NCBI GenBank assembly: GCA_016934315.1
Contig: JAFGSY010000021.1
Coordinates: 25,470 to 89,469 of the forward strand
Origin: Candidatus Anaeroferrophillus wilburensis
Lineage (GTDB): Bacteria; Desulfobacterota; Anaeroferrophillalia; Anaeroferrophillales; Anaeroferrophillaceae
Reading direction: 5' to 3'
DNA length: 64,000 nt
Positions 17,052-33,910 of this stretch are shown here, one piece after another (the first letter of the stretch is position 1; every line of letters starts with the position of its first letter). The position numbers and the translations under genes were made by a program. Below the pieces are notes generated by a model, which did no database searches, was not told the DNA's origin, and worked only from the letters and a program-made list of their open reading frames with translations.

Positions 17052-18494
17052 ATGAGTCAAAAACGGATTCTGGTCGTTGATGATGAACATCTGATCCGCT
17101 GGTCGTTGTCGCAGATGCTGGCCGAGGGCGGGTATCTGGTGGAAACGGCTGAAGATGGCCATGAGGCTGACATCAAGCTGCGGCAGTTCAAACCCCACAT
17201 GGTGCTGCTGGATATCTGCCTGCCGGATGCCAATGGCATGGATCTGCTGAAAAAATTCAAAGCGGTTGATGAAGATCTGCTGATCATCATGATTACCGCC
17301 TACTCCCATGCTGATTCGGCCGTCAATGCATTGAAGCTGGGTGCCGAGGACTATATCGGCAAGCCGTTCAACCTGGAAAGTGTTCAGCACTGCATTGATC
17401 AGGTATTTGAAAAATGGCGTCTCAAAGAGGAGAATGCCTTCTACCGGCAGGTCCTGCAGAAAAAATTTGAAACAGACAATCTGGTTGGCAACTGTCCGAA
17501 AATGATCGAAGTGTTCAAAATGATCAAGGTTGCCGCCGATGCCGATGACAAGACGGTCCTGGTCCTCGGGCCAAGTGGTACCGGCAAGGAGCTGGTGGCC
17601 CGGGGCATCCATATGCACAGCAGCCGTGCTGAGCAGCCGTTTATCGAGGTCAACTGCGCAGCCATTCCTGAAACCCTGCTGGAAAATGAATTGTTCGGCC
17701 ATGAACGGGGTGCCTATACGGATGCTTCCCGGAAGCAGAAGGGGATGTTCGAGCTGGCCCAGCGGGGAACGGTGTTTCTTGATGAGATTGGCGATATGCC
17801 CATCGGCATGCAGGCAAAAATTCTGAAAGTGATAGAGGACAAGCGCTACCGTCGCCTGGGCGGTGAGGATGAGGTGGCCATTGATGCCCGGATTATTGCC
17901 GCCACCAACCAGAACCTGCAGAAACTGGTGAAAGAGGGGAAGTTCAGGGCCGACCTTTTTTATCGCCTGGATGTGATGACCATTTCGCTGCCGACCCTGC
18001 GTGAGCGCAAGATGGATATTCCCCAGCTTGTTGCCTATTTCATTGAACGGTTCAACGACGAGTATGGCCGCCAGGTGGAGGATGTTGATGCGCGGGCCAT
18101 GGACTACCTGATGAACTACAGCTGGCCCGGCAATGTCCGGGAGCTCAGGAATACCATTGAGCGGGCGATGATGTTGGAAGAAGGAAGAACCCTGGGGCTT
18201 GATCACCTCTGTGCCGAGGTGGTTCGGCACCATGAAGGCCGTGATGGGGAGGATTGTCGAACGCCGGCCGGCAGCCGGCGCTTCTCCCCGGATCAGCTGG
18301 AACTGCCGGCTGAAGGGATCTCGCTGGAAGAGGTGGAAAAACGGCTCATCCAGCTGGCTTTGGAACGCTGGGACGGCAACCAGACCAAGGCGGCTGAGTG
18401 CCTGCGCATGAGTCGGGATACCCTGCGCTACCGGATTAAAAAGTTCAACTTTGGTAAAGCTGAAAAACAGGGGCGGGATGATAATGGGAACTGA
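17052..18494 (+). CDS. sigma-54-dependent response regulator (NtrC family enhancer-binding protein)
   Basis: REC domain (ILVVDDEHLIR...DICLPD), AAA+ Walker A GPSGTGKE, a GAFTGA-position loop that reads GAYTDA, and a C-terminal Fis-type HTH (NQTKAAECLRMSRDTLRYRIKKF). Start at MSQKRILVV within ORF 16998..18494. Confidence 0.9.
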   Translation: MSQKRILVVDDEHLIRWSLSQMLAEGGYLVETAEDGHEADIKLRQFKPHMVLLDICLPDANGMDLLKKFKAVDEDLLIIMITAYSHADSAVNALKLGAEDYIGKPFNLESVQHCIDQVFEKWRLKEENAFYRQVLQKKFETDNLVGNCPKMIEVFKMIKVAADADDKTVLVLGPSGTGKELVARGIHMHSSRAEQPFIEVNCAAIPETLLENELFGHERGAYTDASRKQKGMFELAQRGTVFLDEIGDMPIGMQAKILKVIEDKRYRRLGGEDEVAIDARIIAATNQNLQKLVKEGKFRADLFYRLDVMTISLPTLRERKMDIPQLVAYFIERFNDEYGRQVEDVDARAMDYLMNYSWPGNVRELRNTIERAMMLEEGRTLGLDHLCAEVVRHHEGRDGEDCRTPAGSRRFSPDQLELPAEGISLEEVEKRLIQLALERWDGNQTKAAECLRMSRDTLRYRIKKFNFGKAEKQGRDDNGN

Positions 18495-19842
18495 ACAGCG
18501 TTGTGTTCTGGTGGTGCTGTTGGTGATTGTACTGGGCTGTATAGTGTCGGCAGGCGAGGGGTGGGCCGGTTGCATCACCACCGAATGTCACCAGACTCTG
18601 GGTCAAATGACCCTTGCCCATGCGCCGGTGGCCGAAGGGGAGTGTCTTGCCTGCCATCGACAGCAAAAATCCGAGCATCCGCTCAAGGGGGAAAAATCCT
18701 TCGGTTTGACCGCTGACGGTGCCGCCCTTTGTTTTTCCTGCCATGAACGGTTCCCGGCCGGCACAACGGCCCATGCGCCGGTGGCCGAGGGGAACTGCCT
18801 CAGCTGCCACAACCCCCACGGCGACCTGGGCGAAGCCCGCTTGGTGGTGAAGGATGGCCAGCAGGCATTGTGTTTCCAGTGTCATGATGCGGCCATGGTT
18901 GGAGAGCAGTTTGTCCATGGTCCCGCTGGGGCCGGGGCCTGCAGCCAGTGCCACAACCCCCATGGTGCGGATCAGCCGGCCTTGTTGCGCCAGGAATCGC
19001 GGCAGTTGTGTCTGTCCTGTCACCAGGAGCTGGCCGCCGGCGAGCGGCAGGCAGCCGTTCTCCATCAGCCGTTCGCCAAAAAGCCCTGCACCGCCTGCCA
19101 TGGCGCCCATGGTGCTGCCAACCCGGGTCTGCTGACCGAGAAGTATCCTGACTTGTGCTTTACCTGCCATCGGCAGGTTGGCAAAATCTATCAGCAGGCC
19201 AGGGTGAAGCACACCGCCCTCTACAAGGATGACCGCTGCGGCAACTGTCATGCGGCTCATTTCTCCAAGGTTTCCGGGCTGCTGCAGGAGCGTGAGCAGG
19301 ATCTCTGCCTGCGCTGCCACGGGGTGGACGATACGAAACGATCCAAACCTCTGAAAAATATCGCCAAGGAACTCCAGGATAAAAAGGTTCTTCATGGGCC
19401 CGTGGCGGACGGCCGCTGCGCCGCCTGTCACCAGCCCCATGGTTCCGATTATTTCCGCCTCTTAAGCGCCGCCTACCCGGAATCCTTTTATGCCCCCTAC
19501 CGGGACAGCGACTATGATTTCTGCCTCTCCTGCCATGAAAAAAACCTCCTCCGTTTTGCCGATACCACCATTTATACCAGCTTTCGTAATGGCAAACAGA
19601 ATCTCCACTACCTTCATGTGGCCAACCGCCGCAAAGGGCGGACCTGCCGTGCCTGCCACCAGGCCCATGCAAGCAATGGCGAGAAATTGATCAATCAGGA
19701 AGGGGCAGCTTTCGGTGACTGGCGGATTCCCCTGCGCTTGGCCCTGACCCCCACCGGCGGCAGCTGTGCCCCCGGCTGCCACAGCCGCAAGGCCTATGAC
19801 CGCCAGCAGCCGGTTGATTATGGCAGCAAAGAGGTCCAATAG
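18478..19842 (+). CDS. multiheme c-type cytochrome (13 CXXCH plus CX4CH and CX3CH)
   Basis: Signal-like N-terminus (RCVLVVLLVIVLGCIVSAGEGWA), 13 CXXCH motifs, CITTECH near the N-terminus and CAPGCH near the C-terminus. It overlaps the end of the EBP gene, so it is probably co-transcribed. The exact start is uncertain (18451-18484). Confidence 0.85.
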   Translation: MIMGTEQRCVLVVLLVIVLGCIVSAGEGWAGCITTECHQTLGQMTLAHAPVAEGECLACHRQQKSEHPLKGEKSFGLTADGAALCFSCHERFPAGTTAHAPVAEGNCLSCHNPHGDLGEARLVVKDGQQALCFQCHDAAMVGEQFVHGPAGAGACSQCHNPHGADQPALLRQESRQLCLSCHQELAAGERQAAVLHQPFAKKPCTACHGAHGAANPGLLTEKYPDLCFTCHRQVGKIYQQARVKHTALYKDDRCGNCHAAHFSKVSGLLQEREQDLCLRCHGVDDTKRSKPLKNIAKELQDKKVLHGPVADGRCAACHQPHGSDYFRLLSAAYPESFYAPYRDSDYDFCLSCHEKNLLRFADTTIYTSFRNGKQNLHYLHVANRRKGRTCRACHQAHASNGEKLINQEGAAFGDWRIPLRLALTPTGGSCAPGCHSRKAYDRQQPVDYGSKEVQ

Positions 19843-19980
19843 GATTATAGCAGTTCTTATCTTTGCCCCATTACCCAGCCAAGGTTAGCGTGGTTGTCTC
19901 TTTACTCTTTTCTCGCCGCTCGCTTCTCATGATCTCCCTGTATTTGATCAGCCCAGTCTCTATTTGGTAAAAGATGTGTT

Positions 19981-20029
19981 GGGTATTTACCCCAGTCCTT
20001 GATGGTGGTGTGGGGTAGATGCCCAATAG
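19981..20029. promoter_or_regulatory. candidate enhancer (UAS): GGGTATTTACCCC ... GATGCCCAATAG
   Basis: Second copy of the motif pair seen at 16581-16619, located 130-175 bp upstream of the sigma-54 promoter at 20157. Confidence 0.4.
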
Positions 20030-20156: not shown

Positions 20157-20172
20157 TGGCACGTATTGTGCA
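20157..20172 (+). promoter_or_regulatory. sigma-54 (-24/-12) promoter for the tetraheme cytochrome gene
   Basis: TGGCAC-GTATT-GTGCA with GG-N10-GC spacing, in an AT-rich region about 150 nt upstream of the ATG at 20325. Confidence 0.65.
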
Positions 20173-20324: not shown

Positions 20325-20984
20325 ATGAAGAAATTAATGATGGCGTTAAGCATTATGGCTTTGGTGCTGGTTGCGGTGCCGGCGTTTGCCCTTCCCGGTG
20401 ATGGAATAGTGGGTTCCCCGCACGATATGAATGTTGTTTCAAACCCTGATGGTCAGGGACGGGTGTGCGCTTTCTGTCATACGCCACACCATGCTTTGGA
20501 TGATGCAAATGCCGATTATCTGCCGCTGTGGTCCCATACGATGACTACACAGACTTTTACTCCCTATGACAGCGTTACTTTGGATGCTGCGGTTACTGAT
20601 GTTCTGGCGGGTCCTTCCCGCCTGTGCATGAGCTGCCACGACGGGGCCATTGCCGTTGATCAGCATTATGCCATTGTCGGTACGGACTACCGGACCGGTG
20701 ATTCCTGGGGCAATATCGCTGTTGGCCAAAATGGCGACCTGACCAACGACCATCCCATCGGTTTTGACTATACCGCAGTCGCCGCGGTGGACGATGAGAT
20801 CAGGCCTGAAACAACCGCGACTACCAATCCGGCCATTCCCACTATTGCCGACCTGCTGCTGGATGGTCAGATCATGACCTGCTCCTCCTGTCATGATGTC
20901 CATAATACTGATAATAATGATGTGGATTTCCTGATCAATCTGCAAGCCGGTTCCGCTATCTGTCTGACCTGCCATGATAAATAG
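20325..20984 (+). CDS. tetraheme c-type cytochrome (paired-CXXCH type)
   Basis: 219 aa. Signal peptide MKKLMMALSIMALVLVAVPAFA. Heme motifs CAFCHTPHH, CMSCHDG, CSSCHDVH and CLTCHDK. Confidence 0.9.
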   Translation: MKKLMMALSIMALVLVAVPAFALPGDGIVGSPHDMNVVSNPDGQGRVCAFCHTPHHALDDANADYLPLWSHTMTTQTFTPYDSVTLDAAVTDVLAGPSRLCMSCHDGAIAVDQHYAIVGTDYRTGDSWGNIAVGQNGDLTNDHPIGFDYTAVAAVDDEIRPETTATTNPAIPTIADLLLDGQIMTCSSCHDVHNTDNNDVDFLINLQAGSAICLTCHDK

Positions 20985-21135: not shown

Positions 21136-22251
21136 GTGCGAGGCAGGATCATGCAGAAGGTAAAGCAGAAAACGGGCAGGATCGGGTGGACATTCCTTGT
21201 TATGCTGCTGGTTGTGGGTAGTTTGTGGGGTTGTGCCGGTCCCCAGGTGGTTGAGGACCACGGTCCGGTTTTCTTTCCGCCGCCGCCGAATCCGCCACGG
21301 CTGCAGTATCTTACCAGCATCTCCTCCTCCCGCGATGTTGACCAGAAGAAGAGCAGCGGCTTTGCCCTGCTGGCGGTGGGTGATGTCCAAGCTGATCAGG
21401 TGAAGCCGGTCGCTAAACCTTATGGTCTGGCGGTTTTTGGTACGAAGCTTTATGTTTGTGATACCGGGTCGGCGCGGGTCATCGTCATTGATTTTGCCGC
21501 CAAAACCTTCGAATATCTCAAAGGGGACTACAGCTTTGGCAAGCTGAAAAAGCCCATCAATCTGGCCGTCGACCGGGAAGGGACGCTTTATGTTGCCGAT
21601 ACGGCCCGTCAGGAGATCCTCGTCTATGGCCCCAGCGGTAATTTTTTGCGGACCATCGGTCGGGAACAGGAGTTGAGACCGGTTGATCTTGCTGTTGATG
21701 GTGACTTTCTTTATGTCACTGATGTCAAAAAGCATCAGGTGATGATTTATGACCGGTTGACCGGCACATTCCTCCAGGGAGTGGGGAACCATCCTGAAAC
21801 ACCTTCGGAAAGTTTGTCCATGCCTTTGGGGTTGGCCGTCGACAGCAAGGGCAGCCTGTTCCTCTCCAACATGGGGCACGGACGGATGATCAATCTTGAC
21901 CGCGACGGCCATTTTCTTGGCTCATTCGGTAAAATGGGAGATGGCTTTGGTCAGTTTGCCCGGCCCAAAGGGGTGGCTATCGATGACCGGGACCGCATCT
22001 ATGTGGTTGATGCCGGCCACCAGAATGTTCAGATTTTCAACCATGAAGGACGTTTGTTGATGTTCTTCGGTGATCCGGGATTGCCTCTTGGTTCCATGAA
22101 CCTGCCGGCCGGCATCGCCGTCACCAGTGAAATGATTGACTTTTTTCAGCCGTATGTTGATCCTTCATTTCGCGTTGAACAGCTGATTTTTGTCACCAAC
22201 CAGTTTGGTGACCACAAGATTACCGTTTATGCCCTTGGTGAACTGAAATAG
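21136..22251 (+). CDS. NHL-repeat six-bladed beta-propeller lipoprotein
   Basis: Lipobox LWGC. Repeated P.GLAVD..G.LYV.D / I.V.D motifs (KPYGLAVFGTKLYVCD, PINLAVDREGTLYVAD, PVDLAVDGDFLYVTD, PLGLAVDSKGSLFLSN, PKGVAIDDRDRIYVVD). Confidence 0.85.
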   Translation: MRGRIMQKVKQKTGRIGWTFLVMLLVVGSLWGCAGPQVVEDHGPVFFPPPPNPPRLQYLTSISSSRDVDQKKSSGFALLAVGDVQADQVKPVAKPYGLAVFGTKLYVCDTGSARVIVIDFAAKTFEYLKGDYSFGKLKKPINLAVDREGTLYVADTARQEILVYGPSGNFLRTIGREQELRPVDLAVDGDFLYVTDVKKHQVMIYDRLTGTFLQGVGNHPETPSESLSMPLGLAVDSKGSLFLSNMGHGRMINLDRDGHFLGSFGKMGDGFGQFARPKGVAIDDRDRIYVVDAGHQNVQIFNHEGRLLMFFGDPGLPLGSMNLPAGIAVTSEMIDFFQPYVDPSFRVEQLIFVTNQFGDHKITVYALGELK

Positions 22252-22317: not shown

Positions 22318-22935
22318 GTGAATGGAATGGCTGGCATGCCTGGGAAACAATGGTCGATTCTGGTGCTGGGGAGCATCGCTCTGGTGTTGCTGCTTCTTGC
22401 TGGTTGCGATCCCACAACCCGCCATAAGGTTCTGACTACCATTTTTGACGGGGTTCCCAGTCCGCTGCCGCCAGAGCAGGTGCTGGAAGACTATTACCGG
22501 CAGCGGCTGGCGGCGGAGGCGGAGCAGGCTGCCCAGACAAATGCCGGTGTGGCAGTTGGTGGCCTGGCGATCGGTTCCCGTCATCGGCCCTATACGGAAA
22601 AGAAATGTACCGACTGCCATGATTTCAGCAGTGCCGTCGGCCTGGTTCGTCCTCCTCGTGAATTGTGTGTCATGTGCCACCGTGATTTTGTGCTTCAGGG
22701 AAAAGGGCTTCATGTTCATGGGCCGGTGGCCATCGGCGACTGTTCTGCCTGCCACCTGCCCCATACCTCTGTCCATGGCTCCCTGCTGGAGCAAGATAAA
22801 ACCGACATTTGCAGCAAGTGCCACCAGGAACAGCGGCTGGCGGCTCTTATGCATGATCGGGTCGTGACCCGTGGGATGGCCTGCACCGACTGCCATGATC
22901 CCCATTATGGCGCCGCCCGGTATTTCCTCAAGTAG
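22318..22935 (+). CDS. pentaheme c-type cytochrome lipoprotein
   Basis: 205 aa with lipobox LLAGC and 5 CXXCH motifs (CTDCH, CVMCH, CSACH, CSKCH, CTDCH). Confidence 0.85.
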   Translation: MNGMAGMPGKQWSILVLGSIALVLLLLAGCDPTTRHKVLTTIFDGVPSPLPPEQVLEDYYRQRLAAEAEQAAQTNAGVAVGGLAIGSRHRPYTEKKCTDCHDFSSAVGLVRPPRELCVMCHRDFVLQGKGLHVHGPVAIGDCSACHLPHTSVHGSLLEQDKTDICSKCHQEQRLAALMHDRVVTRGMACTDCHDPHYGAARYFLK

Positions 22936-25729: not shown

Positions 25730-26585
25730 AACTCTTGGCCTGATAGTTATGTTGCTGGTGGTTTCGTTGTTTCTTTGCCAGCTGGGATCAGAAAATACCA
25801 ATCCTCACTTGGGGGAGGTGGCCTGCGATGAATGTCACCTGGGTGTCCCGACGGCCGGCGATGCCGGCAGCAAGCTGTTTGTTGCCGATATCGAGACCCT
25901 CTGCCTCCGCTGCCACCGCGATATTACCCTCGCCATGTCTCATCCCGTGGCCCTCAAGCCCACGTTTTCCCTGCCTGTCGATATGCCTCTTGACTGGAAA
26001 GGGGAACTGACGTGCTCCACCTGCCATTACATGCATGAGCATGATGACCAGCCGTACCATGACCAGGCTGTTTTTCTCCGACGCAATTCGGTCGGCCAGG
26101 CGTTCTGTCAGGAGTGCCACCAGCAGGGCTTCATGATGAATCGGACCCTCGGTCACAGCCTGGCCAAAAGTGATGCCCATTACACGCCCTATGGCAGCAG
26201 TGCCGCCGCCGACAGTTTCGGTGGAACTGATGCATCCCCTCTGCTGGATGAGTCGTCATCGGCCTGCCTCACCTGCCACGATGGTTCCATAGCCCGTGAT
26301 GAAGGGACAACGGAGATGAGTGCCGGGGCAATCTCCCTGGGAGCAGGAATCTGGCGTCATGACGGTGATTACGGCCGCAACAGCCATCCCTTGGGGGTCA
26401 GGTATGGTGATGCCCGACGCCGGCGCAGCGGCTACCGTGATGCCGCCATGCTGCCCAGCGTCATCCGGTTGCCGGGGGGGAAGGTTGAATGTGTTTCCTG
26501 CCATAATCCTTACTCTACCAATGATTCACTGCTGGTTATTGACAATCGCGGGAGTCGGTTATGTCTGACATGCCATCTCAAATGA
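25722..26585 (+). CDS. heptaheme c-type cytochrome
   Basis: Start at MRKTLGLIVMLLVVSLFLCQ, overlapping the upstream stop codon. There are 7 CXXCH motifs. The C-terminal part (CLTCHDGSIA...SHPLGVRY...CVSCHNPY...CLTCHLK) resembles the 20325 tetraheme module. Confidence 0.85.
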   Translation: MRKTLGLIVMLLVVSLFLCQLGSENTNPHLGEVACDECHLGVPTAGDAGSKLFVADIETLCLRCHRDITLAMSHPVALKPTFSLPVDMPLDWKGELTCSTCHYMHEHDDQPYHDQAVFLRRNSVGQAFCQECHQQGFMMNRTLGHSLAKSDAHYTPYGSSAAADSFGGTDASPLLDESSSACLTCHDGSIARDEGTTEMSAGAISLGAGIWRHDGDYGRNSHPLGVRYGDARRRRSGYRDAAMLPSVIRLPGGKVECVSCHNPYSTNDSLLVIDNRGSRLCLTCHLK

Positions 26586-27172
26586 AGAAAAAGTCCTATG
26601 TCCGGCGAACCTACCTGGTTGACCGGACTTTCCAGGTTCGTTTTTCGCTGCTTTTTTTCGGTGGCGTAATGGTGCTCGGCCTGCTGGCCGGGGTGGCCAC
26701 CTATGTGCCGGCCAGAAATATGCTTGTCCGCCATCTCTATTCACCCCATATTTCCTTTGCCGCCTCCGGCGAGATTCTCGCCAGGCTGTTTATCTGGCTG
26801 AATGTCGGTTTTGCCTTACCGTTGATTGTCTTTTCTCTGATGCTGGTTACCTGGTATGTCCGGCGGACGGCCGGTTCTCTGCAAAGGCTGCGGGCCAGCC
26901 TGGCAGTCTTGGCCGCCGGCCGGATTCCCCCAGCGCTTTTTTTTCGCCGTCGTGACCCTTTAAACGCTGTTGCGGCGGACCTCAACCTGATGGTCGTGAG
27001 CTTTAGGGACCGCCAGCAGATCATTATCCAACACCTGCAGGCTGCCAGAGCGTTGTTGAAGATTGAGGATGAGCGTGAAGGTTTGTCTCAGCCTTTACCA
27101 GTCTTGGAACAGGTGCGGCGGGAGGTTCAGGCAGCCCTGGAGGTCATTCCCGAGAGGGAGGCTCTGCTATGA
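26582..27172 (+). CDS. small 2-TM membrane protein with a HAMP-like linker (paralog of 25160..25729)
   Basis: ATGA overlap with the cytochrome stop. The N-terminus is KKKSYVRRTYLVDRTFQVRFSLLFFGGVMVLGLL, a second TM follows, then WYVRRTAGSLQRLRASLAVLAAGRIP. Confidence 0.6.
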   Translation: MKKKSYVRRTYLVDRTFQVRFSLLFFGGVMVLGLLAGVATYVPARNMLVRHLYSPHISFAASGEILARLFIWLNVGFALPLIVFSLMLVTWYVRRTAGSLQRLRASLAVLAAGRIPPALFFRRRDPLNAVAADLNLMVVSFRDRQQIIIQHLQAARALLKIEDEREGLSQPLPVLEQVRREVQAALEVIPEREALL

Positions 27173-28215
27173 AGGGGGGATGTGGCGAACAGTGGCGATG
27201 CATCCTTTTTCTGATGTTGTTTATGCTGGCCTCCTGTTCAACCGGAACCCTGCAGGAACAAGGTGGCCTCGAGCCCGTGCCGGTGTGGCCGGCACCGCCT
27301 GCAGCAGCTCGGATTGTCTGGGTAGAGGAGGTCAGCCGGTTTCAGGATATTTGTGGCCAGCCAGGCTTCTGGCAGCGGCTCAAAGAGGTCCTGGTGGGCA
27401 AAATAAGCACCGGCATGGTTAAACCCTATGGCATCTATATAGACGAGGAACAACGTCTGTACGTGGTTGATTCAGGCAGCGGTTTCATCCACCTGATGGA
27501 TCCTAATGCCGGCTGCTACCGGGCCATCCCCGGGCCGGATGACGGCTTGGTGCTGCCGTCGCCCATCGGTGTTGCCGGTGATGATCAGGGGCAGGTGTTT
27601 ATCACCGATTCCAAGTTGGGGAAGGTGTACCGCTACCTTCCCGATGATGGTTCCCTGCAGCCGCTGACCAGGATGACCCTCAAGCGGCCCGCCGGGATTG
27701 CCTACCACCGGCTCAACCGGCTGCTCTATGTGGCTGAAGCGGGTGTACACCAGGTGGTGGCCTTTGACCGTCAGGGGATCGAACAGTTTCGTTTTGGCAG
27801 CCATGGCAAGAGGCCGGGAGAATTTAACTTCCCTACTGCTGTCTGTGTCGATCAGCGGGGCCAGGTACTGGTGACGGACGCCCTTAATGCCCGGGTGCAG
27901 ATATTTACCCCTGAAGGCCAGTTTGTCGCTGCTTTCGGGGAGCCCGGTGATACTTCCGGGACCTTTGCCAAACCGAAAGGGGTGGCGGTCGACAGCGAGG
28001 GGCATGTCTACGTCTGTGATGCCCTGTTTGATGCCGTCCAGATCTTTGACCAGGAGGGCAGGCTGTTGCTAACCTTCGGCCAGAGTGGCTCTGCGCCCGG
28101 AGAGTTCTGGATGCCCAGCGGTATCAGTATTGACAGCCGCGATTATATCTATGTTGCTGATTCCTATAATCGCCGGGTCCAGGTATTCAGATATGTGAGG
28201 GAAGGCGAAAGGTGA
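27169..28215 (+). CDS. NHL-repeat beta-propeller lipoprotein (second copy)
   Basis: Lipobox LASC. NHL blades include PYGIYIDEEQRLYVVD, PIGVAGDDQGQVFITD, PAGIAYHRLNRLLYVAE, PTAVCVDQRGQVLVTD, PKGVAVDSEGHVYVCD and PSGISIDSRDYIYVAD. Confidence 0.85.
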   Translation: MKGGCGEQWRCILFLMLFMLASCSTGTLQEQGGLEPVPVWPAPPAAARIVWVEEVSRFQDICGQPGFWQRLKEVLVGKISTGMVKPYGIYIDEEQRLYVVDSGSGFIHLMDPNAGCYRAIPGPDDGLVLPSPIGVAGDDQGQVFITDSKLGKVYRYLPDDGSLQPLTRMTLKRPAGIAYHRLNRLLYVAEAGVHQVVAFDRQGIEQFRFGSHGKRPGEFNFPTAVCVDQRGQVLVTDALNARVQIFTPEGQFVAAFGEPGDTSGTFAKPKGVAVDSEGHVYVCDALFDAVQIFDQEGRLLLTFGQSGSAPGEFWMPSGISIDSRDYIYVADSYNRRVQVFRYVREGER

Positions 28216-28325: not shown

Positions 28326-29972
28326 ATGAAAAAGAATGCTGAAGGTTGCAGGATGGTGTTGGCGGTTGTCCTGGTGATGCTGCTGGGTATCTCGACGGGA
28401 TGGGCGGCCGGGGTTGCCGATACCCGGCACAATTTGTCGGTGAGTGGCCCCGGCGAGATTGTAGCCACCGCTGAGGTGCGGATCTGTATCTTCTGCCATA
28501 CGCCCCACCATGCCAGTCCCACCCAGCCGTTGTGGAGCCGGGAGCTGAGCGGAGCTTCCTACGACCTTTATGCCTCGACCACCATCAAGGCCCAGCCGGG
28601 GCAGCCCACCGGCGCCTCCCGTCTCTGTCTCAGCTGTCATGACGGCACCGTGGCCCTCGGGCTGCTCCACGATGCCGCAGTACCGATCACCATGGCCGGC
28701 GGCATCACGACCCTGCCGTCGTCCCGATCCACCAACTTGCAGACCGATCTTGCCGATGATCATCCCATCTCCTTTGCCTACACCGCTGCTCTGGCTGCTG
28801 TTAATGGTGAACTGCGGGATCCCGCAACCCTGCCGGCGGCCATTAAATTGGAGGAGGGCAGCCAGCTCCAGTGCACCGCCTGCCACAACCCCCATAAGGA
28901 TCCATACGGCAAGTTCCTGGTGATGGACAACGCCGGCGCGGCGCTCTGCGTCGCCTGCCATGATAAAACCGGCTGGGCATCAAGCACCCACGCCACGGCT
29001 TCGGGGGTTGCCGGCCAGGGCTGCAATGCCTGCCATGTACCCCATAATGCCGGCGGCCGGGAGCGGCTGTTGAAAAGTCAGCAGGAAGAGCAGAACTGTT
29101 TTCCCTGCCATGACACCAGCGGCAGCGAGATCGATGTGCTGACCGATTTTACCAAGTTGCACCATCACCCGGTGGAGGCAACAGCCGGTGAGCATGATCC
29201 CCTGGAGGACCCGCTCACTGCCCTCTATCACGTGGAGTGCAGCGACTGTCACAATCCCCACCGGCTCAACGACACGGCGGCGACGCCGCCTTTAGTGACC
29301 GGCCAACTGGCTGGCGTCAAGGGGGTTACCATTGCCGGTCTGGTGGTGGCCGAATCCCAGTACCAGTATGAGATCTGCTTCCGCTGCCACGCCGACAACT
29401 CCTTTTCCCCGGTGGTCGCCATTCCCCGGCAGATCCAGGAAGTCAACGAGCGGCTCCGCTTTGACCCGGCCAATCCCTCCTACCATCCGGTGGCCGCCAT
29501 CGGCAAACAGCCCTCGGTTCCCAGCCTGAGGCCGGAGTATTCGTCTGCCAGCATGATCTACTGCAGCGACTGTCATAACAGCGACACCGGAAGCATGGTC
29601 GGTGGTGCCGGGGCTGATGGCGTCCATGGCTCCAGCAATCCCCGGCTGCTGGTGGCCCGCTATGAGCAGGATGCCTACCCGCTGAGCTACGCGGAAAGCA
29701 ATTATGCCCTCTGTTTCCGCTGCCATGATCCCAATGTGCTCATGGACCGTTTCCGGTCCAACTTTCCCAGTCACCGTAGTCATGTGATTGCCAAGCAGAC
29801 TCCCTGCTCCGTCTGTCACGATCCCCATGGGGTGCCGCTGGTGGGGGGCGCTACCACCACCGGCAACGCCCATCTGATCAACTATGATAGCCGCTTTGTT
29901 ACCGGCACCTATAATTCGGTGACCCGCAGCTGCACGGTAAACTGTCATATGATGAACCCCCGCAGTTATTAA
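28326..29972 (+). CDS. multiheme c-type cytochrome (11 CXXCH plus a C-terminal CX3CH)
   Basis: Start at MKKNAEGCRMVLAVVLVMLLGISTGWA within ORF 28290..29972. The first 210 aa or so are homologous to the 20325 tetraheme protein (CIFCHTPHH, CLSCHDG, DHPISFAY, CTACHNPH, CVACHDK). The C-terminus is SCTVNCH. Confidence 0.85.
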   Translation: MKKNAEGCRMVLAVVLVMLLGISTGWAAGVADTRHNLSVSGPGEIVATAEVRICIFCHTPHHASPTQPLWSRELSGASYDLYASTTIKAQPGQPTGASRLCLSCHDGTVALGLLHDAAVPITMAGGITTLPSSRSTNLQTDLADDHPISFAYTAALAAVNGELRDPATLPAAIKLEEGSQLQCTACHNPHKDPYGKFLVMDNAGAALCVACHDKTGWASSTHATASGVAGQGCNACHVPHNAGGRERLLKSQQEEQNCFPCHDTSGSEIDVLTDFTKLHHHPVEATAGEHDPLEDPLTALYHVECSDCHNPHRLNDTAATPPLVTGQLAGVKGVTIAGLVVAESQYQYEICFRCHADNSFSPVVAIPRQIQEVNERLRFDPANPSYHPVAAIGKQPSVPSLRPEYSSASMIYCSDCHNSDTGSMVGGAGADGVHGSSNPRLLVARYEQDAYPLSYAESNYALCFRCHDPNVLMDRFRSNFPSHRSHVIAKQTPCSVCHDPHGVPLVGGATTTGNAHLINYDSRFVTGTYNSVTRSCTVNCHMMNPRSY

Positions 29973-30042
29973 GCCCCTACCTCTCGCCGGCATTTGTCCG
30001 TCTTCCCTGCTGGAGCAGATCCCTTGTGCCAGGGTGATTCGT

Positions 30043-30508: not shown

Positions 30509-33500
30509 ATGAAAAAAATTCATCTAACCACCGCTTTGCTGGCGGCAGTGATTCTGCTGTTTGGTATGGTGGGCAGTTCCATGGCAATCCATCCCGACAT
30601 TGATTTGTTGGATGCCGACGGAAATCCCATTTCCTCGGCCGGTGGGCTGCAGCCGGCATTCAGTTATAAAACAACCTGTGGCGCCTGCCACAACGGGGTC
30701 AACCTTGACGGCGAGGGCAATGTCCTGCTGAGCTACGATGACATCGAACAGCACAGCCTGCATGCCCAATTGTCTGCCAACCAGTTCATGGGTTGGAACA
30801 TCTGGAATCCCGATTCAGCCAATTCCTACAAAAAAGGCCCGGCTCCGAAAGGCAAGAACTGGGTCCAGAGTCCCGGCCATTTCGGCAAGTGGTGACCGCC
30901 GTCAGCGCGCCAGTTGGCGCATCTTTTTGCTGACGCTTCAAATCCCACCTACGATGCCGCGAGCGCCAAATATAATGACGGCGGCATGAATCTAAACTTT
31001 ACTCCTTATAATTTTGGCAGCGAGGCTGCTTTTAAACAGCAGGTTGACCTGGCCATTGCCGGCATGATGCAGGATTGCGCCGAGTGCCATGTGGGCGGCG
31101 GGGCGATGGAATATGTTCCGGCCCCGACGGCCAACGCCAATGACCGGGTTTCTCTGCGTGACATCTATGCCACGCCGCTCAGCTATACCAAAGATTCCGG
31201 CGGCAATACAGTTCCTTTCGGGCCGTTTGACAGCAATATGTTTACCGCCTTCAACAAGTTCATCGATACTTTCGATGTTGACGGCGACGGTGATAAGCTG
31301 GAAGTGCTGGATGCCGACTGGCCGAATACCGGAGTCATCGAAATGGACTGTTTCCTCTGCCACCTCCAGGGCTACAAGTACCAGGACCGGGTTGCCGCCC
31401 AGCGGGCAGCCAAGTTCGACGTCTCCCGGGTGGTCGGCAGCGGTGTCGGGACGGCCAACACGCTTGCCTGGGATCCGAATTCCACCGTGCCGCCTGAAGG
31501 CTATGGTACCGACGTGACCTATAACAACTATGTTCAGGATAATGGTTCCGGCAACCTTAAATTCCACTATGCCATCAACTATTACCTGAAGGAATTTCCC
31601 CCCAGTGACAACTGTGCCTTCTGCCACTTCGGCAAACCCGCCGTCGACTGGAAGAAGCGCGGCGACAACTGGGCCAATGCCACCCAGACCTATGAGGTCC
31701 ATAAGGCTGTTGGCTGCATAGGCTGTCACCAGGCTAAAGTTGGCACGGTGATCGGTACTGACAACGTTGCCGACGGCAACCTCGGTCAGTGCGATCCGGC
31801 CAAGGGGATTGCCCCCTACAGCAGTGCCTGGAATAATACCGACGGTACCGTCAAGACCTGCGAAGACTGCCATCTCAATTACGGTTATGATGAAGATCTC
31901 GGCACCTACAGCCCCGCATACGGCGCTCCCAACCCAACCGGTGCCCATCAGGCTGCCGGGTTGACGGCGGTGCTCTGTCAAACCGGTGAAAATGGGGTGG
32001 CCAACGCCAGCCACCTGGATATTATCGACTGTGCCGCCTGTCACGTTCGCAAAATTGCCGATCCGGCCACCAACCCCTGGAACACCGGCGGTGCCATCGT
32101 TGATGCCACTGGCGCTGACATCGAAGGCCGCATGGCTGACCATGAAAACGAATATGTCCATCGGGAGATGTATGACCCCGACGACGATGCCACCAACATC
32201 ACCTTTTCCTGGCTGCAGGGCAAAATTATTGCCACCAGCGTCCTGAACACCGTCTACTGGCGCGACAAGAATGATGTCAACCACGACGTCAACGCTGATG
32301 GTCGCGGGGGCGGCATGGACACACCGCTGACCACCCATGTCCTGGCGGTCAATGAAGTCAACGGTTGGACAAACCTGGCCGAAGACAACCATGGTCATAT
32401 TACTAGTACGGAGATTGGTGCCCGGATCACTGCGCTGGAGAATGGACTGCCGGCTCTAACCGGCAAACCTGGTACGCCGGTCATCAAAATCTCAACCATG
32501 GCCGTGCCTTTCAAGGTCAATCACAACATCGCTCCGAAGCAGTACGCCATCGGCAAGCAGTGTACCGACTGCCATGGCAATACTGCTGATCTTGACAGCG
32601 ATGGCGACGGCATCAGCAACGGCGGCATCTTCAACGGCGCCTACACAATGCAGGGCGTCAATATGGATATGACCAATCTTGCTACTCAGGTAACGCCACT
32701 GACTAAGGCGAACTCCTTTGAGGATGTGACAGACTTCCATCCCAACACCAAGAACAAGTTGGCTACCCGGACCATTCCCATCAAAAACTGGAGTGGCCTG
32801 ACCACCATGCGTGCTGTGGACCGCAGTGAAACCCTGTGGGAAAACACCTTCAGGGCCCGTAATACCACTTGGCATGCCAACGGTGATCCCATCGTCGGCG
32901 GCGCCATCCCCTTCCCGGCTCCGGGGTCAACCGGTGCCAACACCAAGGGTCTGTGGCTCAAGGTCGAAGTTGACACCAATCTGGACGGCGTTACGGATGT
33001 GACCCGGACCCGGATGGTCAATTCCTTTGTTGACAGTACGGCTGGTATGTCTGGTCTGTTGAATGACCTTGGCTCCGGTGCTACTGATGGAACAGACTTC
33101 ACCGATGACTTCGAATTTGTGATTTCCGACAATGGTGCCGGCGGTCTGCAGATTGAAGCCAAGGCCGGCAATCAGATCCGTCTGAATCCGGCAACCACCT
33201 CCGGAGCCACGGGGCTCAATTTGGTGGGTTATGTCTGGACGCCGACCCCGATTATCGGTGTAGACGGCAATCCATATCCTGGTCGAACCGAGTGGGTTGC
33301 CTATCTGAATTCCATTAATCCAAACGATGTCGGTATCGGGCTTGATCCGATTGCCGATATCGCCACCATCGATGGTCAGGATCCTGATCTGGTGCTGCCT
33401 TACATTGAGATCATTAAGGGTAGTACGGTAACCTTGGTTGCCGACGATCCCGCTGCCGCCGGGGTTTTCAGGTATACCTGGACCTTCAGTGACAGCACTG

Positions 33501-33910
33501 CGGTTGGTGAGGCACAGTCGGTCCAGTATACCTTCAATACTACCGGCCTGGTTACCGTTTTCCTGACGGTCATCGACGAAGAGAACAAACTTTCCCAGCA
33601 GTCGGTCAAGGTCAATGTCATTGTGCCGCCGCCGGTAACGGGTCTTACCTATGATGCAACGGCCGGCGATCCGAATGTCACCTTGCATCTGGTCGGTCTG
33701 CCAACCCATGATAGACTTTATTTCTACTATGGTGACGGCCTCAGGCAGCAGATCTATGACTCTGCAGATTCCTTTGACTTGGTTCACACCTATCGTTTCA
33801 AAAGCAAGTATCTTACGGGAGGGAACTACAGCTACAATACCTCGGTACGGATCTACAATGGCAGCACCCTGGTTGAAACGCTGCAGGAAAACGTGCTGAT
33901 CCCTCAATGA
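30509..33910 (+). CDS. giant secreted octaheme c-type cytochrome with a PKD-like C-terminal domain; reading frame interrupted by one in-frame TGA (30893-30895), so either a candidate selenoprotein or a pseudogene
   Basis: ORFs 30509..30895 (signal peptide plus CGACH) and 30914..33910 (7 CXXCH, no signal peptide, no ATG/RBS) are in the same frame, separated only by a TGA. A hairpin follows the TGA. The C-terminal segment FRYTWTFSD...YTFNTTGLVTVFLTVIDEEN is PKD-like. Confidence 0.6.

What the first reader, a model, noticed from the sequence alone, without database searches (positions are those of the whole stretch)
18478..33910. Atypical multiheme-cytochrome / NHL-propeller / beta-barrel island: candidate new extracellular electron transfer conduit
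Within about 15 kb there are seven c-type cytochromes on one strand, with 13, 4, 5, 7, 11 and 8 CXXCH (plus non-canonical sites). They are interleaved with two NHL six-bladed beta-propeller lipoproteins, a 662-aa heme-free signal-peptide protein with beta-barrel-like composition, and two small 2-TM HAMP-like proteins. The island ends with a secreted cytochrome of about 1130 aa carrying a PKD-like domain. A porin plus periplasmic and lipoprotein cytochromes recalls the Mtr and Geobacter Pcc/Ext conduits. However, the gene order, the paired NHL propellers and the HAMP-like membrane proteins are not part of those described systems. The neighbouring dodecaheme cytochrome, GAF-PAS kinase and sigma-54 activator suggest a dedicated regulatory circuit.
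Basis: inference. Interest (0 to 1): 0.8.

Follow-up and report, generated by a model that had tools for sequence, protein, structure and literature searches.

The report
OmcE/Uet-type electron conduit with selenocytochrome
The island is a real, widely conserved outer-membrane electron-transfer gene cluster of an already described kind (the OmcE "nanowire" and Uet clusters), but its last gene looks like an undescribed selenocysteine-containing eight-heme cytochrome.

Summary
The 662-aa protein models as a barrel of about 30 strands. The whole cluster is conserved in order in relatives, so neither computational refutation test is met.

The cluster is not a new kind of conduit:
- The 4-heme protein is a full-length homolog of the solved OmcE filament subunits.
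- The N-terminal 214 residues of the 11-heme protein are also OmcE-like.
- The 13-heme protein is an MtrA homolog.
- An OmcE-like cytochrome, two propeller lipoproteins, a large barrel and further multiheme cytochromes are the published signature of omcE clusters.
- A Candidatus Tenderia uet cluster fetched here has homologs of the 4-heme, both NHL and 11-heme proteins.

The same core occurs in Geomonas, Malonomonas, Dissulfurirhabdus and MAGs labelled with at least six other phyla. It is best called a new variant. It has an MtrA-like 13-heme protein, a 5-heme lipoprotein, a barrel family with no detectable similarity to the omcE or Uet barrels, and a TM–7-heme–TM insert.

That TGA is conserved in nine genes and is followed by a conserved hairpin. 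Homologs carry Cys or Asp there, so it is probably selenocysteine.

The parts
13682..15622 (-). Cytoplasmic PAS histidine kinase with no predicted TM segment and a weak GAF match. It is the sensor of the island's two-component pair.
   Evidence: Pfam PAS_9, HisKA and HATPase_c. No hydrophobic segment. Conserved at the same position in L001 and L002.
15626..16417 (-). 12-heme cytochrome with a signal peptide. Probably a periplasmic electron carrier or store.
   Evidence: 12 CXXCH. Pfam Cytochrom_c3_2 and Cytochrome_C7. No PDB sequence match. Conserved next to the kinase in L001 and L002. One to three copies occur in L009-L011.
16486..16501 (-). Sigma-54 (-24/-12) promoter-like site upstream of the 12-heme gene.
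   Evidence: GGGCACAATCATTGCA. Sites at the equivalent position in L001 (3368) and L002 (3497).
17052..18494 (+). Sigma-54-dependent response regulator (receiver, AAA+ and Fis-type HTH domains).
   Evidence: Pfam Response_reg, Sigma54_activat (E=6.5e-67) and HTH_8. Conserved upstream of the 13-heme gene in L001, L002, L009-L011 and L013.
18478..19842 (+). 13-heme MtrA/DmsE-like cytochrome. Proposed to be the barrel-threading periplasmic wire.
   Evidence: 13 CXXCH. Seven Paired_CXXCH_1 stretches (E=4e-75). MtrA chain 6r2q_A, E=4e-15. TIGR03508, E=5.6e-40, which is below that model's cut-off.
20157..20172 (+). Sigma-54 (-24/-12) promoter about 150 bp upstream of the OmcE-like gene.
   Evidence: TGGCACGTATTGTGCA. 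A GG-N10-GC site lies at the equivalent position in L001, L002, L009, L010, L011, L012 and L109.
20325..20984 (+). OmcE-like tetraheme cytochrome. Candidate extracellular filament subunit, and counterpart of UetA.
   Evidence: Full-length match to OmcE filament chains 7tfs_A (E=5.9e-21) and 9yuq (E=4.5e-20). Four CXXCH plus H33, H55, H143 and H193 are invariant against both solved OmcEs. 30% identical to Tenderia UetA-like, E=7e-23.
21151..22251 (+). NHL six-bladed beta-propeller lipoprotein 1.
   Evidence: Pfam NHL, E=1.2e-24. Lipobox ..SLWGC. Conserved immediately upstream of the 5-heme lipoprotein in almost all related loci.
22336..22935 (+). 5-heme lipoprotein cytochrome (lipobox LLAGC, Asp at +2).
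   Evidence: 5 CXXCH. Paired_CXXCH_1, E=1e-23. Always directly upstream of the barrel gene.
22945..24933 (+). Outer-membrane beta-barrel of about 30 strands, with a small inserted domain at residues ~387-445.
   Evidence: AF2 mean pLDDT 82.8, with 18 + 12 long antiparallel strands. No Pfam or NCBIfam family. Foldseek finds only generic large barrels; the best TM-score is MtrB 6r2q_B at 0.39. 13 close homologs and distant ones in 20 GTDB genomes, always inside the same cluster.
25160..25729 (+). Small 2-TM protein with a HAMP-like motif (KIAGPLYRL), called TM1 here.
   Evidence: Two hydrophobic helices. Paralog of TM2, E=1e-7. No Pfam hit. Travels with the 7-heme gene and TM2 as one module.
25722..26585 (+). 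7-heme cytochrome with an N-terminal signal or anchor. Its C-terminal half is OmcE-like.
   Evidence: 7 CXXCH. Residues 178-287 match the D. soudanensis OmcE 9yuq, E=8.6e-8. Flanked by TM1 and TM2 in every locus that has it.
26561..27172 (+). Small 2-TM HAMP-like protein, called TM2 here.
   Evidence: Pfam HAMP, E=0.002, below the cut-off. Two TM helices.
27169..28215 (+). NHL six-bladed beta-propeller lipoprotein 2, counterpart of UetI.
   Evidence: Pfam NHL, E=9.4e-32. Lipobox ..LASC. 34% identical over 357 aa to the Tenderia UetI-position protein, E=2e-57.
28326..29972 (+). 11-heme cytochrome: an N-terminal OmcE-like 4-heme domain fused to 7 more hemes. Counterpart of UetJ.
   Evidence: 11 CXXCH. 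Residues 15-214 match OmcE 7tfs, E=1.7e-27. All eight OmcE heme ligands are conserved. 29% identical to the Tenderia 11-heme UetJ-position protein, E=8e-46. It is the best-conserved protein of the cluster across phyla, at 40-60% identity.
30509..33910 (+). Octaheme cytochrome of 1133 codons with a signal peptide, an in-frame UGA at codon 129 and C-terminal PKD/Ig-like domains. Candidate selenoprotein and surface terminal redox enzyme.
   Evidence: 8 CXXCH. PKD_4, E=8e-7. The part after the UGA has 7 CXXCH but no signal peptide. Foldseek on a homolog's model hits only Ig/FN3-like C-terminal domains. No match to ExtKL, GSU2204 or OTR selenoprotein models.
30893..30895 (+). In-frame UGA, proposed to encode selenocysteine (motif GH-x-G-x-W-U-P-P-S).
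   Evidence: Same position and TGA in 9 of 9 genes with DNA in hand, from 6 genomes or contigs. 22 of 23 short representative proteins end right after the invariant Trp. Sense-codon homologs carry Cys or Asp. TGA is a normal stop for other island genes.
30907..30920 (+). SECIS-like hairpin GCGCC-AGUU-GGCGC, starting 11 nt after the UGA.
   Evidence: Four invariant pairs sit on synonymous codon positions. The closing pair covaries: UA x4, GC x3, CG x1, and 1 mismatch. 97.8% of cells are paired, against 31-76% when the 3' partners are slid. Loop is A-G-N-U.

Best explanation
The island is a sigma-54-controlled trans-outer-membrane electron-transfer module. It belongs to the same modular kind as the Geobacter/Desulfuromonas omcE nanowire clusters and the Tenderia uet cluster.

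Proposed mechanism (only the homologies and the conserved gene order are shown; the rest is inferred):
1. Periplasmic electrons are buffered by the divergently transcribed 12-heme cytochrome.
2. They enter the MtrA-like 13-heme cytochrome, which threads a barrel of about 30 strands.
3. The 5-heme lipoprotein and the two NHL-propeller lipoproteins sit on the outer membrane as scaffold, docking or assembly factors.
4. Outside the cell, the 11-heme protein's N-terminal 4-heme OmcE fold would let it join to, or nucleate, a polymer of the OmcE-like 4-heme subunit.
5. The PKD/Ig-tailed octaheme protein is a surface-exposed catalytic end-point. Its in-frame UGA is read as selenocysteine.

The direction of electron flow (reduction of an external acceptor, or uptake from an external donor) cannot be read from the sequence. 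The TM1-7-heme-TM2 insert is an optional accessory module of unknown role.
For: - Fold and homology: OmcE homology of c4 and of the c11 N-terminus, with all eight heme ligands invariant. MtrA homology of c13. A barrel of about 30 strands predicted with high confidence. NHL lipoproteins.
- Match to published systems: the literature definition of the minimal omcE cluster matches the core found here. A Tenderia uet locus (L240: 4h, 335-aa ORF at the published UetB position, 608-aa ORF at the UetC position, 3h, 3h, 514 aa, 3h, NHL, NHL, 11h) has homologs of c4, NHL1/2 and c11.
- Conservation: the core order c4-NHL-5h lipoprotein-barrel-NHL-11h, usually with the 13h gene, is kept in Malonomonas rubra, Desulfuromusa, Geomonas oryzae, G. 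paludis, Geomesophilobacter and Dissulfurirhabdus thermomarina. It is also kept in MAGs labelled Omnitrophota, Bacteroidia, Verrucomicrobiota, Acidobacteriota, Planctomycetota and Sumerlaeota.
- Regulation: -24/-12 promoter sites upstream of c4 in 8 loci and upstream of c12 in 3 loci, next to a sigma-54 activator.
- Selenocysteine: a conserved UGA, a hairpin with covariation, Cys/Asp homologs, and no signal peptide on the downstream part. The octaheme gene follows the cluster in four further genomes or contigs.
Against: - No experiment exists for this variant. Filament formation, localisation and electron direction are all inferred.
- The barrel has no detectable sequence similarity to the barrels of Geobacter omcE loci, of a Gallionellaceae uet-like locus or of Tenderia uet (hhalign E=0.055, 0.49 and 0.3), nor to MtrB/PioB models. 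A shared role is therefore by analogy.
- The 5-heme lipoprotein has Asp at +2, which in E. coli means inner-membrane retention.
- Selenocysteine: two full-length sense-codon homologs and one fragment have Asp and only one has Cys. The Asp paralog of Malonomonas keeps a similar hairpin. Rfam gives no SECIS hit. No sel genes or tRNA-Sec lie in the window.
- The octaheme gene is not universal. L001 carries a different 17-heme PKD protein at that position.
Confidence: 0.6

Rival explanations
1. A plain Mtr/Pcc-like porin-cytochrome conduit with no filament. The 13-heme protein sits inside the barrel. The 4-heme and 11-heme proteins are monomeric surface cytochromes, as UetA and UetJ were originally proposed to be.
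For: MtrA homology of c13. A large barrel. The Uet authors modelled UetA and UetJ as extracellular cytochromes inserted in UetC.
Against: c4 keeps every ligand that builds the OmcE filament, including the N-terminal His. It meets the criteria the OmcE authors used to pick nanowire-competent homologs, namely an adjacent barrel and propeller lipoprotein. That paper notes tetraheme OmcE-like sequences are widespread and restricted its own analysis to those next to a barrel and propeller gene.
Confidence: 0.25
2. The barrel and the NHL propellers are mainly a secretion and assembly machine (usher-like) for the OmcE-like subunits, as proposed for the osc cluster of OmcS. Electrons would reach the filament by another route.
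For: The OmcE preprint describes the barrel as 'secretion or anchor' and cites Shen et al. 2025 for a porin-like mounting pathway for OmcS. Two propellers with no redox cofactor are conserved in every variant.
Against: An MtrA-like cytochrome and a lipoprotein cytochrome are encoded right beside the barrel in this variant, as in true conduits. No PPIase or chaperone gene lies in the island, unlike uetB. The Shen et al. paper could not be read here.
Confidence: 0.2
3. The module works inward, taking electrons from Fe(II), sulfide minerals, a cathode or a partner cell, as proposed for Uet and for the D. ferrophilus DFE operons. This concerns direction only and is compatible with the architecture above.
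For: Uet is tied to cathode oxidation. DFE operons are induced under electron-donor limitation. The class holding one of the window's two closest TrpB matches was predicted to use DFE-type operons for iron oxidation.
Against: The same core occurs in classical Fe(III) and S0 reducers and a sulfur disproportionator (Geomonas, Desulfuromusa, Dissulfurirhabdus). OmcE filaments are described in iron- and electrode-reducing bacteria. The only characterised Sec multiheme cytochrome is a reductase (PMC13510729).
Confidence: 0.3
4. The last cytochrome gene is a pseudogene or two separate genes, and the TGA is a true stop.
For: Gene callers annotate two ORFs in every genome. No SECIS family hit in Rfam.
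Against: - The stop is at the same codon in 9 genes and about 22 diverged representative clusters, which is not how pseudogenes decay.
- The frame and the peptide W-x-PPS-x-RQ-x-A continue across it.
- The downstream 1004 codons have 7 heme motifs but no export signal.
- Full-length homologs with Cys or Asp exist.
Confidence: 0.05

Closest known systems
omcE cytochrome-nanowire gene cluster (G. sulfurreducens OmcE, PDB 7TFS; D. soudanensis DSOUD_2954, PDB 9YUQ; bioRxiv 10.1101/2025.10.22.684050)
   Same: A tetraheme OmcE homolog with identical heme ligation pattern. A large outer-membrane barrel gene. Two beta-propeller lipoproteins. Further multiheme cytochromes with doubled-CXXCH motifs.
   Different: - Geobacter loci have 9-heme and 8-heme cytochromes, and the order is 9h-8h-NHL-OmcE-barrel followed by glycosyltransferases (L029). 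Here the order is 13h(MtrA-like)-OmcE-like-NHL-5h lipoprotein-barrel-NHL-11h.
- The barrels show no detectable sequence similarity.
- An OmcE-domain-containing 11-heme protein and the Sec-octaheme protein were not seen in the two Geobacter omcE loci examined here (L028, L029).
uet (undecaheme electron transfer) cluster of Candidatus Tenderia electrophaga (bioRxiv 10.1101/2022.05.06.490989); Gallionella Uet (PMC10734462)
   Same: A tetraheme (UetA), a barrel (UetC), two NHL proteins (UetH/I) and an 11-heme protein (UetJ). Homology of four of these to the window proteins was shown against a Tenderia sp. locus and a Gallionellaceae locus.
   Different: The PPIase (UetB), three triheme c7 proteins (UetD/E/G), cupredoxin (UetF) and adjacent ccsAB are absent here. 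The MtrA-like 13h, 5h lipoprotein, TM1-7h-TM2 and Sec-octaheme are absent there. UetJ-type proteins are about 900 aa against 548 aa here. The barrels are not detectably related.
MtrCAB porin-cytochrome complex (PDB 6R2Q)
   Same: An MtrA-like periplasmic multiheme wire (E=4e-15) encoded with a very large barrel. MtrB gives the best TM-score among PDB barrels (0.39).
   Different: About 30 strands instead of 26. No MtrB/PioB family match. No MtrC/OmcA-type decaheme. 13 hemes instead of 10. The NHL propellers and OmcE-like proteins have no Mtr counterpart.
Desulfovibrio ferrophilus DFE_0448-0451 / DFE_0461-0465 cytochrome-NHL operons (PMC5815863), and the same annotation in Ca. Anaeroferrophillalia (bioRxiv 10.1101/2021.03.22.436540)
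   Same: Multiheme cytochromes co-transcribed with NHL beta-propellers and proposed to form an outer-membrane complex. The window's TrpB is 80% identical to that of a MAG labelled Ca. Anaeroferrophillacea.
   Different: The passages retrieved from those papers mention no barrel in the operons. Sequence-level comparison with the DFE proteins was not done here.
MccSep / ExtKL (GSU2937-2936), the characterised selenocysteine multiheme cytochrome (PMC13510729)
   Same: A multiheme c-type cytochrome with one in-frame UGA, a downstream stem-loop and an Ig-like C-terminal domain. Found in Desulfobacterota of sulfur and iron environments.
   Different: Five hemes and about 40 kDa, against eight hemes and 1133 residues. 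Sec motif D-G-U-P near the C-terminus, against W-U-P-P-S at codon 129. No NF040886 hit and no PDB sequence match. MccSep is periplasmic, whereas this protein has PKD/Ig surface-type domains.

Membership tests
OmcE-type nanowire cluster | Tetraheme OmcE homolog with four CXXCH and four conserved distal His | tested here: met
   7tfs_A E=5.9e-21 and 9yuq E=4.5e-20, both full length. H33, H55, H143, H193 and all CXXCH are invariant.
OmcE-type nanowire cluster | Adjacent large outer-membrane beta-barrel gene | tested here: met
   Barrel of about 30 strands, pLDDT 82.8. Homology to the Geobacter omcE-locus barrel was not detected (hhalign E=0.055).
OmcE-type nanowire cluster | Two beta-propeller lipoproteins in the cluster | tested here: met
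   Two NHL proteins with lipoboxes. 30-36% identical to the NHL proteins of Geobacter omcE loci.
OmcE-type nanowire cluster | Two accompanying multiheme cytochromes (9-heme and 8-heme in the Geobacter loci examined here) | tested here: inconclusive
   Accompanying cytochromes exist but are 13-heme, 5-heme and 11-heme. The Geobacter 9h and 8h proteins hit c13 at only 28-39% identity.
OmcE-type nanowire cluster | Subunit polymerises into an extracellular filament | not testable with these tools
   Needs cryo-EM or biochemistry.
Uet cluster | Tetraheme UetA, NHL pair UetH/I and undecaheme UetJ | tested here: met
   Against Tenderia sp. L240: c4 vs the 4h protein, 30% identity, E=7e-23. NHL2 vs the UetI-position protein, E=2e-57, and vs the UetH-position protein, E=1.5e-17. 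c11 vs the 11h protein, E=8e-46.
Uet cluster | UetC-type barrel | tested here: inconclusive
   A barrel is present, but hhalign against the Tenderia and Gallionellaceae barrels gives E=0.3 and 0.49. These were single-sequence targets, so sensitivity was low.
Uet cluster | PPIase UetB, triheme c7 UetD/E/G and cupredoxin UetF | tested here: not met
   No such domains in any island protein.
MtrCAB / MtrB-PioB porin-cytochrome | MtrB/PioB-family barrel | tested here: not met
   No Pfam or NCBIfam family hit for the 662-aa protein. Foldseek TM to 6r2q_B is 0.39.
MtrCAB / MtrB-PioB porin-cytochrome | MtrA/DmsE-family decaheme | tested here: inconclusive
   Homologous to MtrA (E=4e-15). It has 13 hemes, and its TIGR03508 score of 137 is below the 192 cut-off.
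MtrCAB / MtrB-PioB porin-cytochrome | MtrC/OmcA-type surface decaheme | tested here: not met
   Only sub-threshold TIGR03507 hits.
Bacterial selenoprotein (the octaheme gene) | Conserved in-frame UGA with conserved flanks | tested here: met
   9 of 9 genes have TGA at the same codon. 22 of 23 representative N-terminal fragments end after the invariant Trp.
Bacterial selenoprotein (the octaheme gene) | SECIS-like hairpin shortly downstream of the UGA | tested here: met
   A 5-bp stem with a 4-nt A-G-N-U loop, 11 nt after the UGA. The closing pair is UA/GC/CG. Covariation score is 0.211 against 0.053 in shuffles, reached by 5 of 500 shuffles. Caveats: a similar hairpin occurs in one Asp paralog, and Rfam gives no hit.
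Bacterial selenoprotein (the octaheme gene) | Cys-containing homologs at the Sec position | tested here: met
   One Cys homolog, D. thermomarina L108 19226-22195 (GGW-C-PTG). Two full-length homologs and one fragment have Asp.
Bacterial selenoprotein (the octaheme gene) | selA/selB/selD and tRNA-Sec in the genome | not testable with these tools
   None in the 64-kb window. The rest of the genome is not available.
MccSep/ExtKL selenocytochrome | Match to NF040886, five-heme architecture and D-G-U-P site | tested here: not met
   No NCBIfam hit. Eight hemes. No PDB sequence hit beyond a weak HAO match.

The most novel reading that the evidence does not exclude
The terminal gene (30509-33910) would found an undescribed selenoprotein family: large, PKD/Ig-tailed octaheme c-type cytochromes with a selenocysteine in a GH-x-G-x-W-U-P-P-S motif. 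The genes are physically linked to OmcE/Uet-type outer-membrane conduits in Desulfobacterota (the window, Geomonas paludis, Malonomonas rubra, Dissulfurirhabdus thermomarina). On this reading, the conduit delivers electrons to, or takes them from, a cell-surface selenoenzyme acting on an insoluble or chalcogen substrate. It would be the extracellular counterpart of the periplasmic polysulfide reductase MccSep. The Sec/Cys/Asp alternation at one site would mark a ligand or active-site residue. Separately, the 11-heme protein with an OmcE-fold N-terminal domain would be the missing base or tip subunit of an OmcE-type filament.
Probability: 0.45. Interest if true: 0.75.

Novelty: new variant of a known kind. 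Interest (0 to 1): 0.55.

Why it matters
1. The analysis ties together systems that were named separately: OmcE cluster, Uet and probably the DFE operons (not compared by sequence here). Occ is a further NHL-plus-undecaheme cluster known only from its paper. OmcE and Uet share an OmcE-like cytochrome, two NHL propellers and a very large barrel. The window's variant of this core occurs in cultured Desulfobacterota and in MAGs labelled with at least six other phyla. Cultured carriers (Geomonas, Malonomonas, Dissulfurirhabdus) are identified in which it can be tested.

2. In this variant an MtrA-like wire and an OmcE-like subunit are encoded around one barrel. That makes a current open question directly testable: are cytochrome nanowires mounted on, and charged through, a porin?

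3. The 11-heme OmcE-fusion protein is a concrete candidate for the filament base or tip that the OmcE authors said they could not find.

4. If the UGA is selenocysteine, this is a new multiheme selenoprotein family beyond the three cytochrome-related families in a 2026 review (only ExtKL/MccSep characterised), and it sits at the cell surface. It is currently mis-annotated as two ORFs in every genome seen here.

Tried and rejected
- A single-sequence scan of GTDB genomes with the barrel found nothing. The alignment-based scan was needed.
- MtrB/PioB membership of the barrel was rejected.
- Sequence relatedness of the barrel to the omcE-locus and Uet barrels was sought with hhalign and not found. 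The targets were single sequences, so this is weak negative evidence.
- An NCBIfam 'phage tail tube' hit to the barrel's inserted domain (E=8e-6, below cut-off) was treated as noise.
- The pseudogene or split-gene reading of the last cytochrome was rejected.
- MccSep/ExtKL, GSU2204-family and OTR-family selenocytochrome membership were rejected.
- Rfam gave no SECIS match.
- AF2 of a full-length Asp-type homolog left residues 1-130 below pLDDT 50. The Sec position therefore could not be placed relative to the hemes. Foldseek returned only Ig/FN3-like C-terminal hits.
- The OmcE scan did not return G. sulfurreducens itself, so G. hydrogenophilus and a 78%-identical Geobacter MAG were used as canonical omcE loci.
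- Shen et al. 2025 (osc cluster) is not held, so the osc comparison rests on a citation only.
- A possible equivalence of c4 and c11 to Geobacter OmcP and OmcO (Gmet_0557/0558, with the NHL protein Gmet_0556) was considered but could not be tested.
- The count of sigma-54 sites in the window is not above chance on its own (2 found, 3.35 expected). Only their conserved positions carry weight.

Full report
**Observation**

The + strand between 18478 and 33910 carries six cytochrome genes with 13, 4, 5, 7, 11 and 8 CXXCH motifs. It also carries the following:
- Two NHL-repeat proteins with lipoprotein signal sequences (Pfam NHL E=1e-24 and 9e-32; N-termini).
- A heme-free 662-aa protein with a signal peptide and no Pfam or NCBIfam family.
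- Two small proteins with two hydrophobic helices each. They are paralogs of one another (E=1e-7). Their HAMP similarity is weak.

Upstream lie a 12-heme cytochrome and a PAS histidine kinase on the other strand, and a sigma-54-dependent response regulator.

There are six cytochrome genes on this strand, not seven. The 'about 1130-aa' cytochrome contains an in-frame TGA at 30893-30895 (…GHFGKW*PPSARQLAHLF…).

Neither test is met.

The first test was the barrel. AlphaFold2 on an alignment of the 13 database homologs gives mean pLDDT 82.8. It shows 18 + 12 long antiparallel strands, a barrel of about 30 strands, interrupted by a small low-confidence inserted domain at residues ~387-445. Foldseek against the PDB returns only generic large barrels. 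The highest TM-score is for MtrB (6r2q_B, 0.39).

The second test was conservation of the unit. The complete order is kinase / 12h / sigma-54 activator / 13h / 4h / NHL / 5h lipoprotein / barrel / TM1 / 7h / TM2 / NHL / 11h. It is kept in metagenomic contigs whose barrels are only 57% and 44% identical (L001, L002). L001 also shares the flanking radical-SAM and trpE genes.

More distant loci (barrel 21-33% identical) keep a core of 4h / NHL / 5h lipoprotein / barrel / NHL / 11h, usually preceded by the 13h gene. These loci are:
- Cultured strains: Malonomonas rubra, Geomonas oryzae, G. paludis, Geomesophilobacter sediminis and Dissulfurirhabdus thermomarina.
- MAGs labelled Desulfuromusa, Omnitrophota, Bacteroidia, Verrucomicrobiota, Acidobacteriota, Planctomycetota and Sumerlaeota.

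The TM1-7h-TM2 block is optional. It sits elsewhere in L009 and L010 and is absent in L005, L006, L011 and L012.

**What the parts are**

- The 4-heme protein aligns over its full length with the two solved OmcE filament subunits: G. sulfurreducens 7TFS (E=5.9e-21) and D. soudanensis 9YUQ (E=4.5e-20). All four CXXCH motifs and the four other heme-ligating histidines (H33, H55, H143, H193) are invariant.
- The first 214 residues of the 11-heme protein are also OmcE-like (E=1.7e-27) and carry the same eight ligands.
- The C-terminal half of the 7-heme protein is OmcE-like as well (E=8.6e-8).
- The 13-heme protein is homologous to MtrA, the cytochrome that threads MtrB (6r2q_A, E=4e-15).

GG-N10-GC sigma-54 promoter sites lie upstream of the OmcE-like gene (20157-20172) and of the 12-heme gene (16486-16501). 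Their number in the window is not above chance. However, sites recur at the same relative position in seven and two other loci respectively, next to a sigma-54 activator.

**Comparison with what is known**

A 2025 preprint on the D. soudanensis OmcE nanowire gives the minimal omcE cluster. [quoted passage not shown] It treats the barrel as a putative secretion pore or anchor.

The uet cluster of Candidatus Tenderia is made of the following:
- UetA: tetraheme cytochrome
- UetB: PPIase
- UetC: barrel, predicted to have 28 strands
- UetD, UetE, UetG: triheme cytochromes
- UetF: cupredoxin
- UetH, UetI: NHL proteins
- UetJ: undecaheme cytochrome

I fetched a Tenderia sp. locus whose ORF sizes and heme counts follow this published order (L240). 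Window proteins match it as follows:
- c4 against its 4-heme protein: 30% identity, E=7e-23.
- NHL2 against its two NHL proteins: E=2e-57 and 1.5e-17.
- c11 against its 11-heme protein: E=8e-46.

A Gallionellaceae locus with a putative 648-aa barrel, four triheme proteins, two NHL proteins and two 11-heme proteins behaves the same way. Canonical Geobacter omcE loci (L028, L029) read ResB / 9h / 8h / NHL / OmcE / 752-aa barrel / glycosyltransferases.

NHL-plus-cytochrome operons were also described in D. ferrophilus. The same type was annotated in Ca. Anaeroferrophillalia. The window's TrpB is 80% identical to that of a MAG labelled Ca. Anaeroferrophillacea and 82% to a Thermodesulfobacteriota MAG.

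The island is therefore a member of an already recognised kind.

**How this variant differs**

- It has an MtrA-like 13-heme wire and a 5-heme lipoprotein where Geobacter has 9h and 8h proteins and Tenderia has triheme proteins, a cupredoxin and a PPIase.
- Its barrel family has no detectable sequence similarity to the omcE-locus, Gallionellaceae or Tenderia barrels (hhalign E=0.055, 0.49 and 0.3), nor to the MtrB/PioB models. This is weak negative evidence, because the targets were single sequences.
- It can carry the TM1-7h-TM2 insert.
- It ends with the octaheme gene.

**The octaheme gene**

Evidence that the TGA is recoded:
- The TGA sits at the same codon, after an invariant Trp, in nine genes from six genomes or contigs: the window, L007, L111, M. 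rubra ×2, D. thermomarina ×2 and G. paludis ×2.
- An exhaustive HMMER search with the 128-residue N-terminal part found 35 representatives. Of the 23 short ones retrieved, 22 end exactly at …G-x-W.
- About 85 homolog clusters of the downstream part begin just after this point.
- The peptide continues in frame (PPS-x-RQ-x-A) and carries seven more CXXCH motifs, but has no signal peptide of its own.
- Homologs with a sense codon at this position exist: Cys (TGC) in a third D. thermomarina paralog, and Asp (GAT) in M. rubra and a metagenomic protein.
- Eleven nucleotides after the UGA lies a hairpin, N-CGCC-AGNU-GGCG-N'. Its four inner pairs are invariant although they fall on synonymous codon positions. 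Its closing pair is U-A (4), G-C (3), C-G (1) or mismatched (1). Pairing is 97.8%, against 31-76% when the partners are slid. Five of 500 shuffles reach the covariation score.
- TGA ends other genes of the island normally.

Evidence against, or missing:
- Asp is more frequent than Cys among the few sense-codon homologs.
- One Asp paralog keeps a similar hairpin.
- Rfam has no match.
- No sel gene or tRNA-Sec is in the window.

The protein matches none of the cytochrome-related selenoprotein models listed in a 2026 review (ExtKL NF040886, GSU2204 family NF041027, OTR TIGR04315). It is unrelated in sequence to the characterised MccSep/ExtKL. Its only PDB similarity is a weak HAO-like stretch (E=0.003). 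A model of an Asp-type homolog is confident except for residues 1-130, and Foldseek recognises only its C-terminal Ig/FN3-like domains.

In D. thermomarina, G. paludis, M. rubra and the L007 contig this gene directly follows the same cluster. The three cultured strains each carry a second copy, and in the first two a LuxR-type two-component pair lies between the copies.

**Mechanism (inferred)**

Periplasmic electrons are buffered by the 12-heme protein. They would pass through the MtrA-like 13-heme protein inside the ~30-strand barrel. By simple barrel geometry this barrel should be roughly 5.5 nm across Cα atoms, against about 4.8 nm for a 26-strand barrel (my estimate). The 5-heme lipoprotein and the two NHL lipoproteins would serve as docking or assembly factors.

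Outside, the 11-heme protein could use its OmcE-fold domain to join a polymer of the 4-heme subunit. The OmcE authors noted that they found no such base or tip candidate in their operons. The octaheme PKD protein would be a surface catalytic terminus. Direction of flow is open: Uet and DFE were proposed for electron uptake, OmcE for reduction.

Rival readings are listed with their tests: a plain porin-cytochrome conduit without a filament, a barrel and propellers that act only as an assembly machine, and inward electron flow.

**Verdict**

The EET interpretation is broadly right, but the claim of a new kind of conduit is not. It is a new variant of the OmcE/Uet kind.

Noticed in passing
window 30893-30920: In-frame TGA followed 11 nt later by a conserved hairpin inside the large cytochrome gene. 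It is conserved in nine genes, and every public annotation seen here splits the gene into a ~130-aa ORF and a ~1000-aa 'PKD domain-containing protein'.
   Followed up: yes
L108 19226-22195; L110 3001-6354; L111 2692-6078: Paralogs of the octaheme protein with a sense codon at the UGA position: Cys in D. thermomarina, Asp in M. rubra and in a metagenomic contig. A Sec/Cys/Asp alternation is unusual and hints at a ligand or active-site residue.
   Followed up: partly
L108 and L109 (D. thermomarina GCA_012979235.1; Geomonas paludis CP096574.1): Both cultured strains carry the full cluster, then the UGA-octaheme gene, a LuxR-type two-component pair and a second UGA-octaheme copy. G. paludis also has a SurA-like PPIase just downstream.
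   Followed up: partly
window 25722-26585: The C-terminal half of the 7-heme protein is OmcE-like (9yuq, E=8.6e-8). The island therefore holds three OmcE-related cytochromes.
   Followed up: partly
window 22945-24933, residues ~387-445: A small low-confidence beta domain is inserted between strands 18 and 19 of the barrel. It gives a sub-threshold NCBIfam hit to a phage tail-tube model (E=8e-6). Its conserved motif is EGVDY. Function unknown.
   Followed up: no
window 22336-22935: The 5-heme lipoprotein has Asp at position +2 after the lipobox Cys (LLAGC-D). In E. coli this is an inner-membrane retention signal, so its membrane location is uncertain.
   Followed up: no
L081, L088, L100, L106 (Gammaproteobacteria MAGs): Another variant of the same kind: NHL / ~1020-aa 24-heme / 5-heme OmcE-like / NHL / ~700-aa 11-heme. 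The 5-heme OmcE-like proteins match the 'possible new OmcE nanowire family' mentioned in the 2025 preprint.
   Followed up: no
window 11898-13685 and 34402-40449: The island is flanked by a radical-SAM gene and a trp operon beginning with trpE. The same radical-SAM and trpE flanks occur in L001, so the island is stably placed in this lineage. Its GC content (0.51-0.60) is not atypical for the window.
   Followed up: partly
window 41097-42254 (-), 44067-45278 (+), 51004-52947 (+): Other redox- or heme-related genes outside the island: a 4-CXXCH cytochrome c554-like protein, a ChaN-type heme-binding protein with a PDZ domain, and a NuoF-like flavoprotein with Fe-S domains.
   Followed up: no
window 38465-39649: TrpB is 82% identical to that of an uncultured Thermodesulfobacteriota MAG and 80% to a MAG labelled Candidatus Anaeroferrophillacea (Zodletone spring). 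The source is probably an uncultured Desulfobacterota lineage near that class.
   Followed up: partly
PDB 6r2q chain A: The local PDB table names the MtrA chain 'Cystathionine beta-synthase'. This looks like a labelling error in the table, not a biological signal.
   Followed up: no
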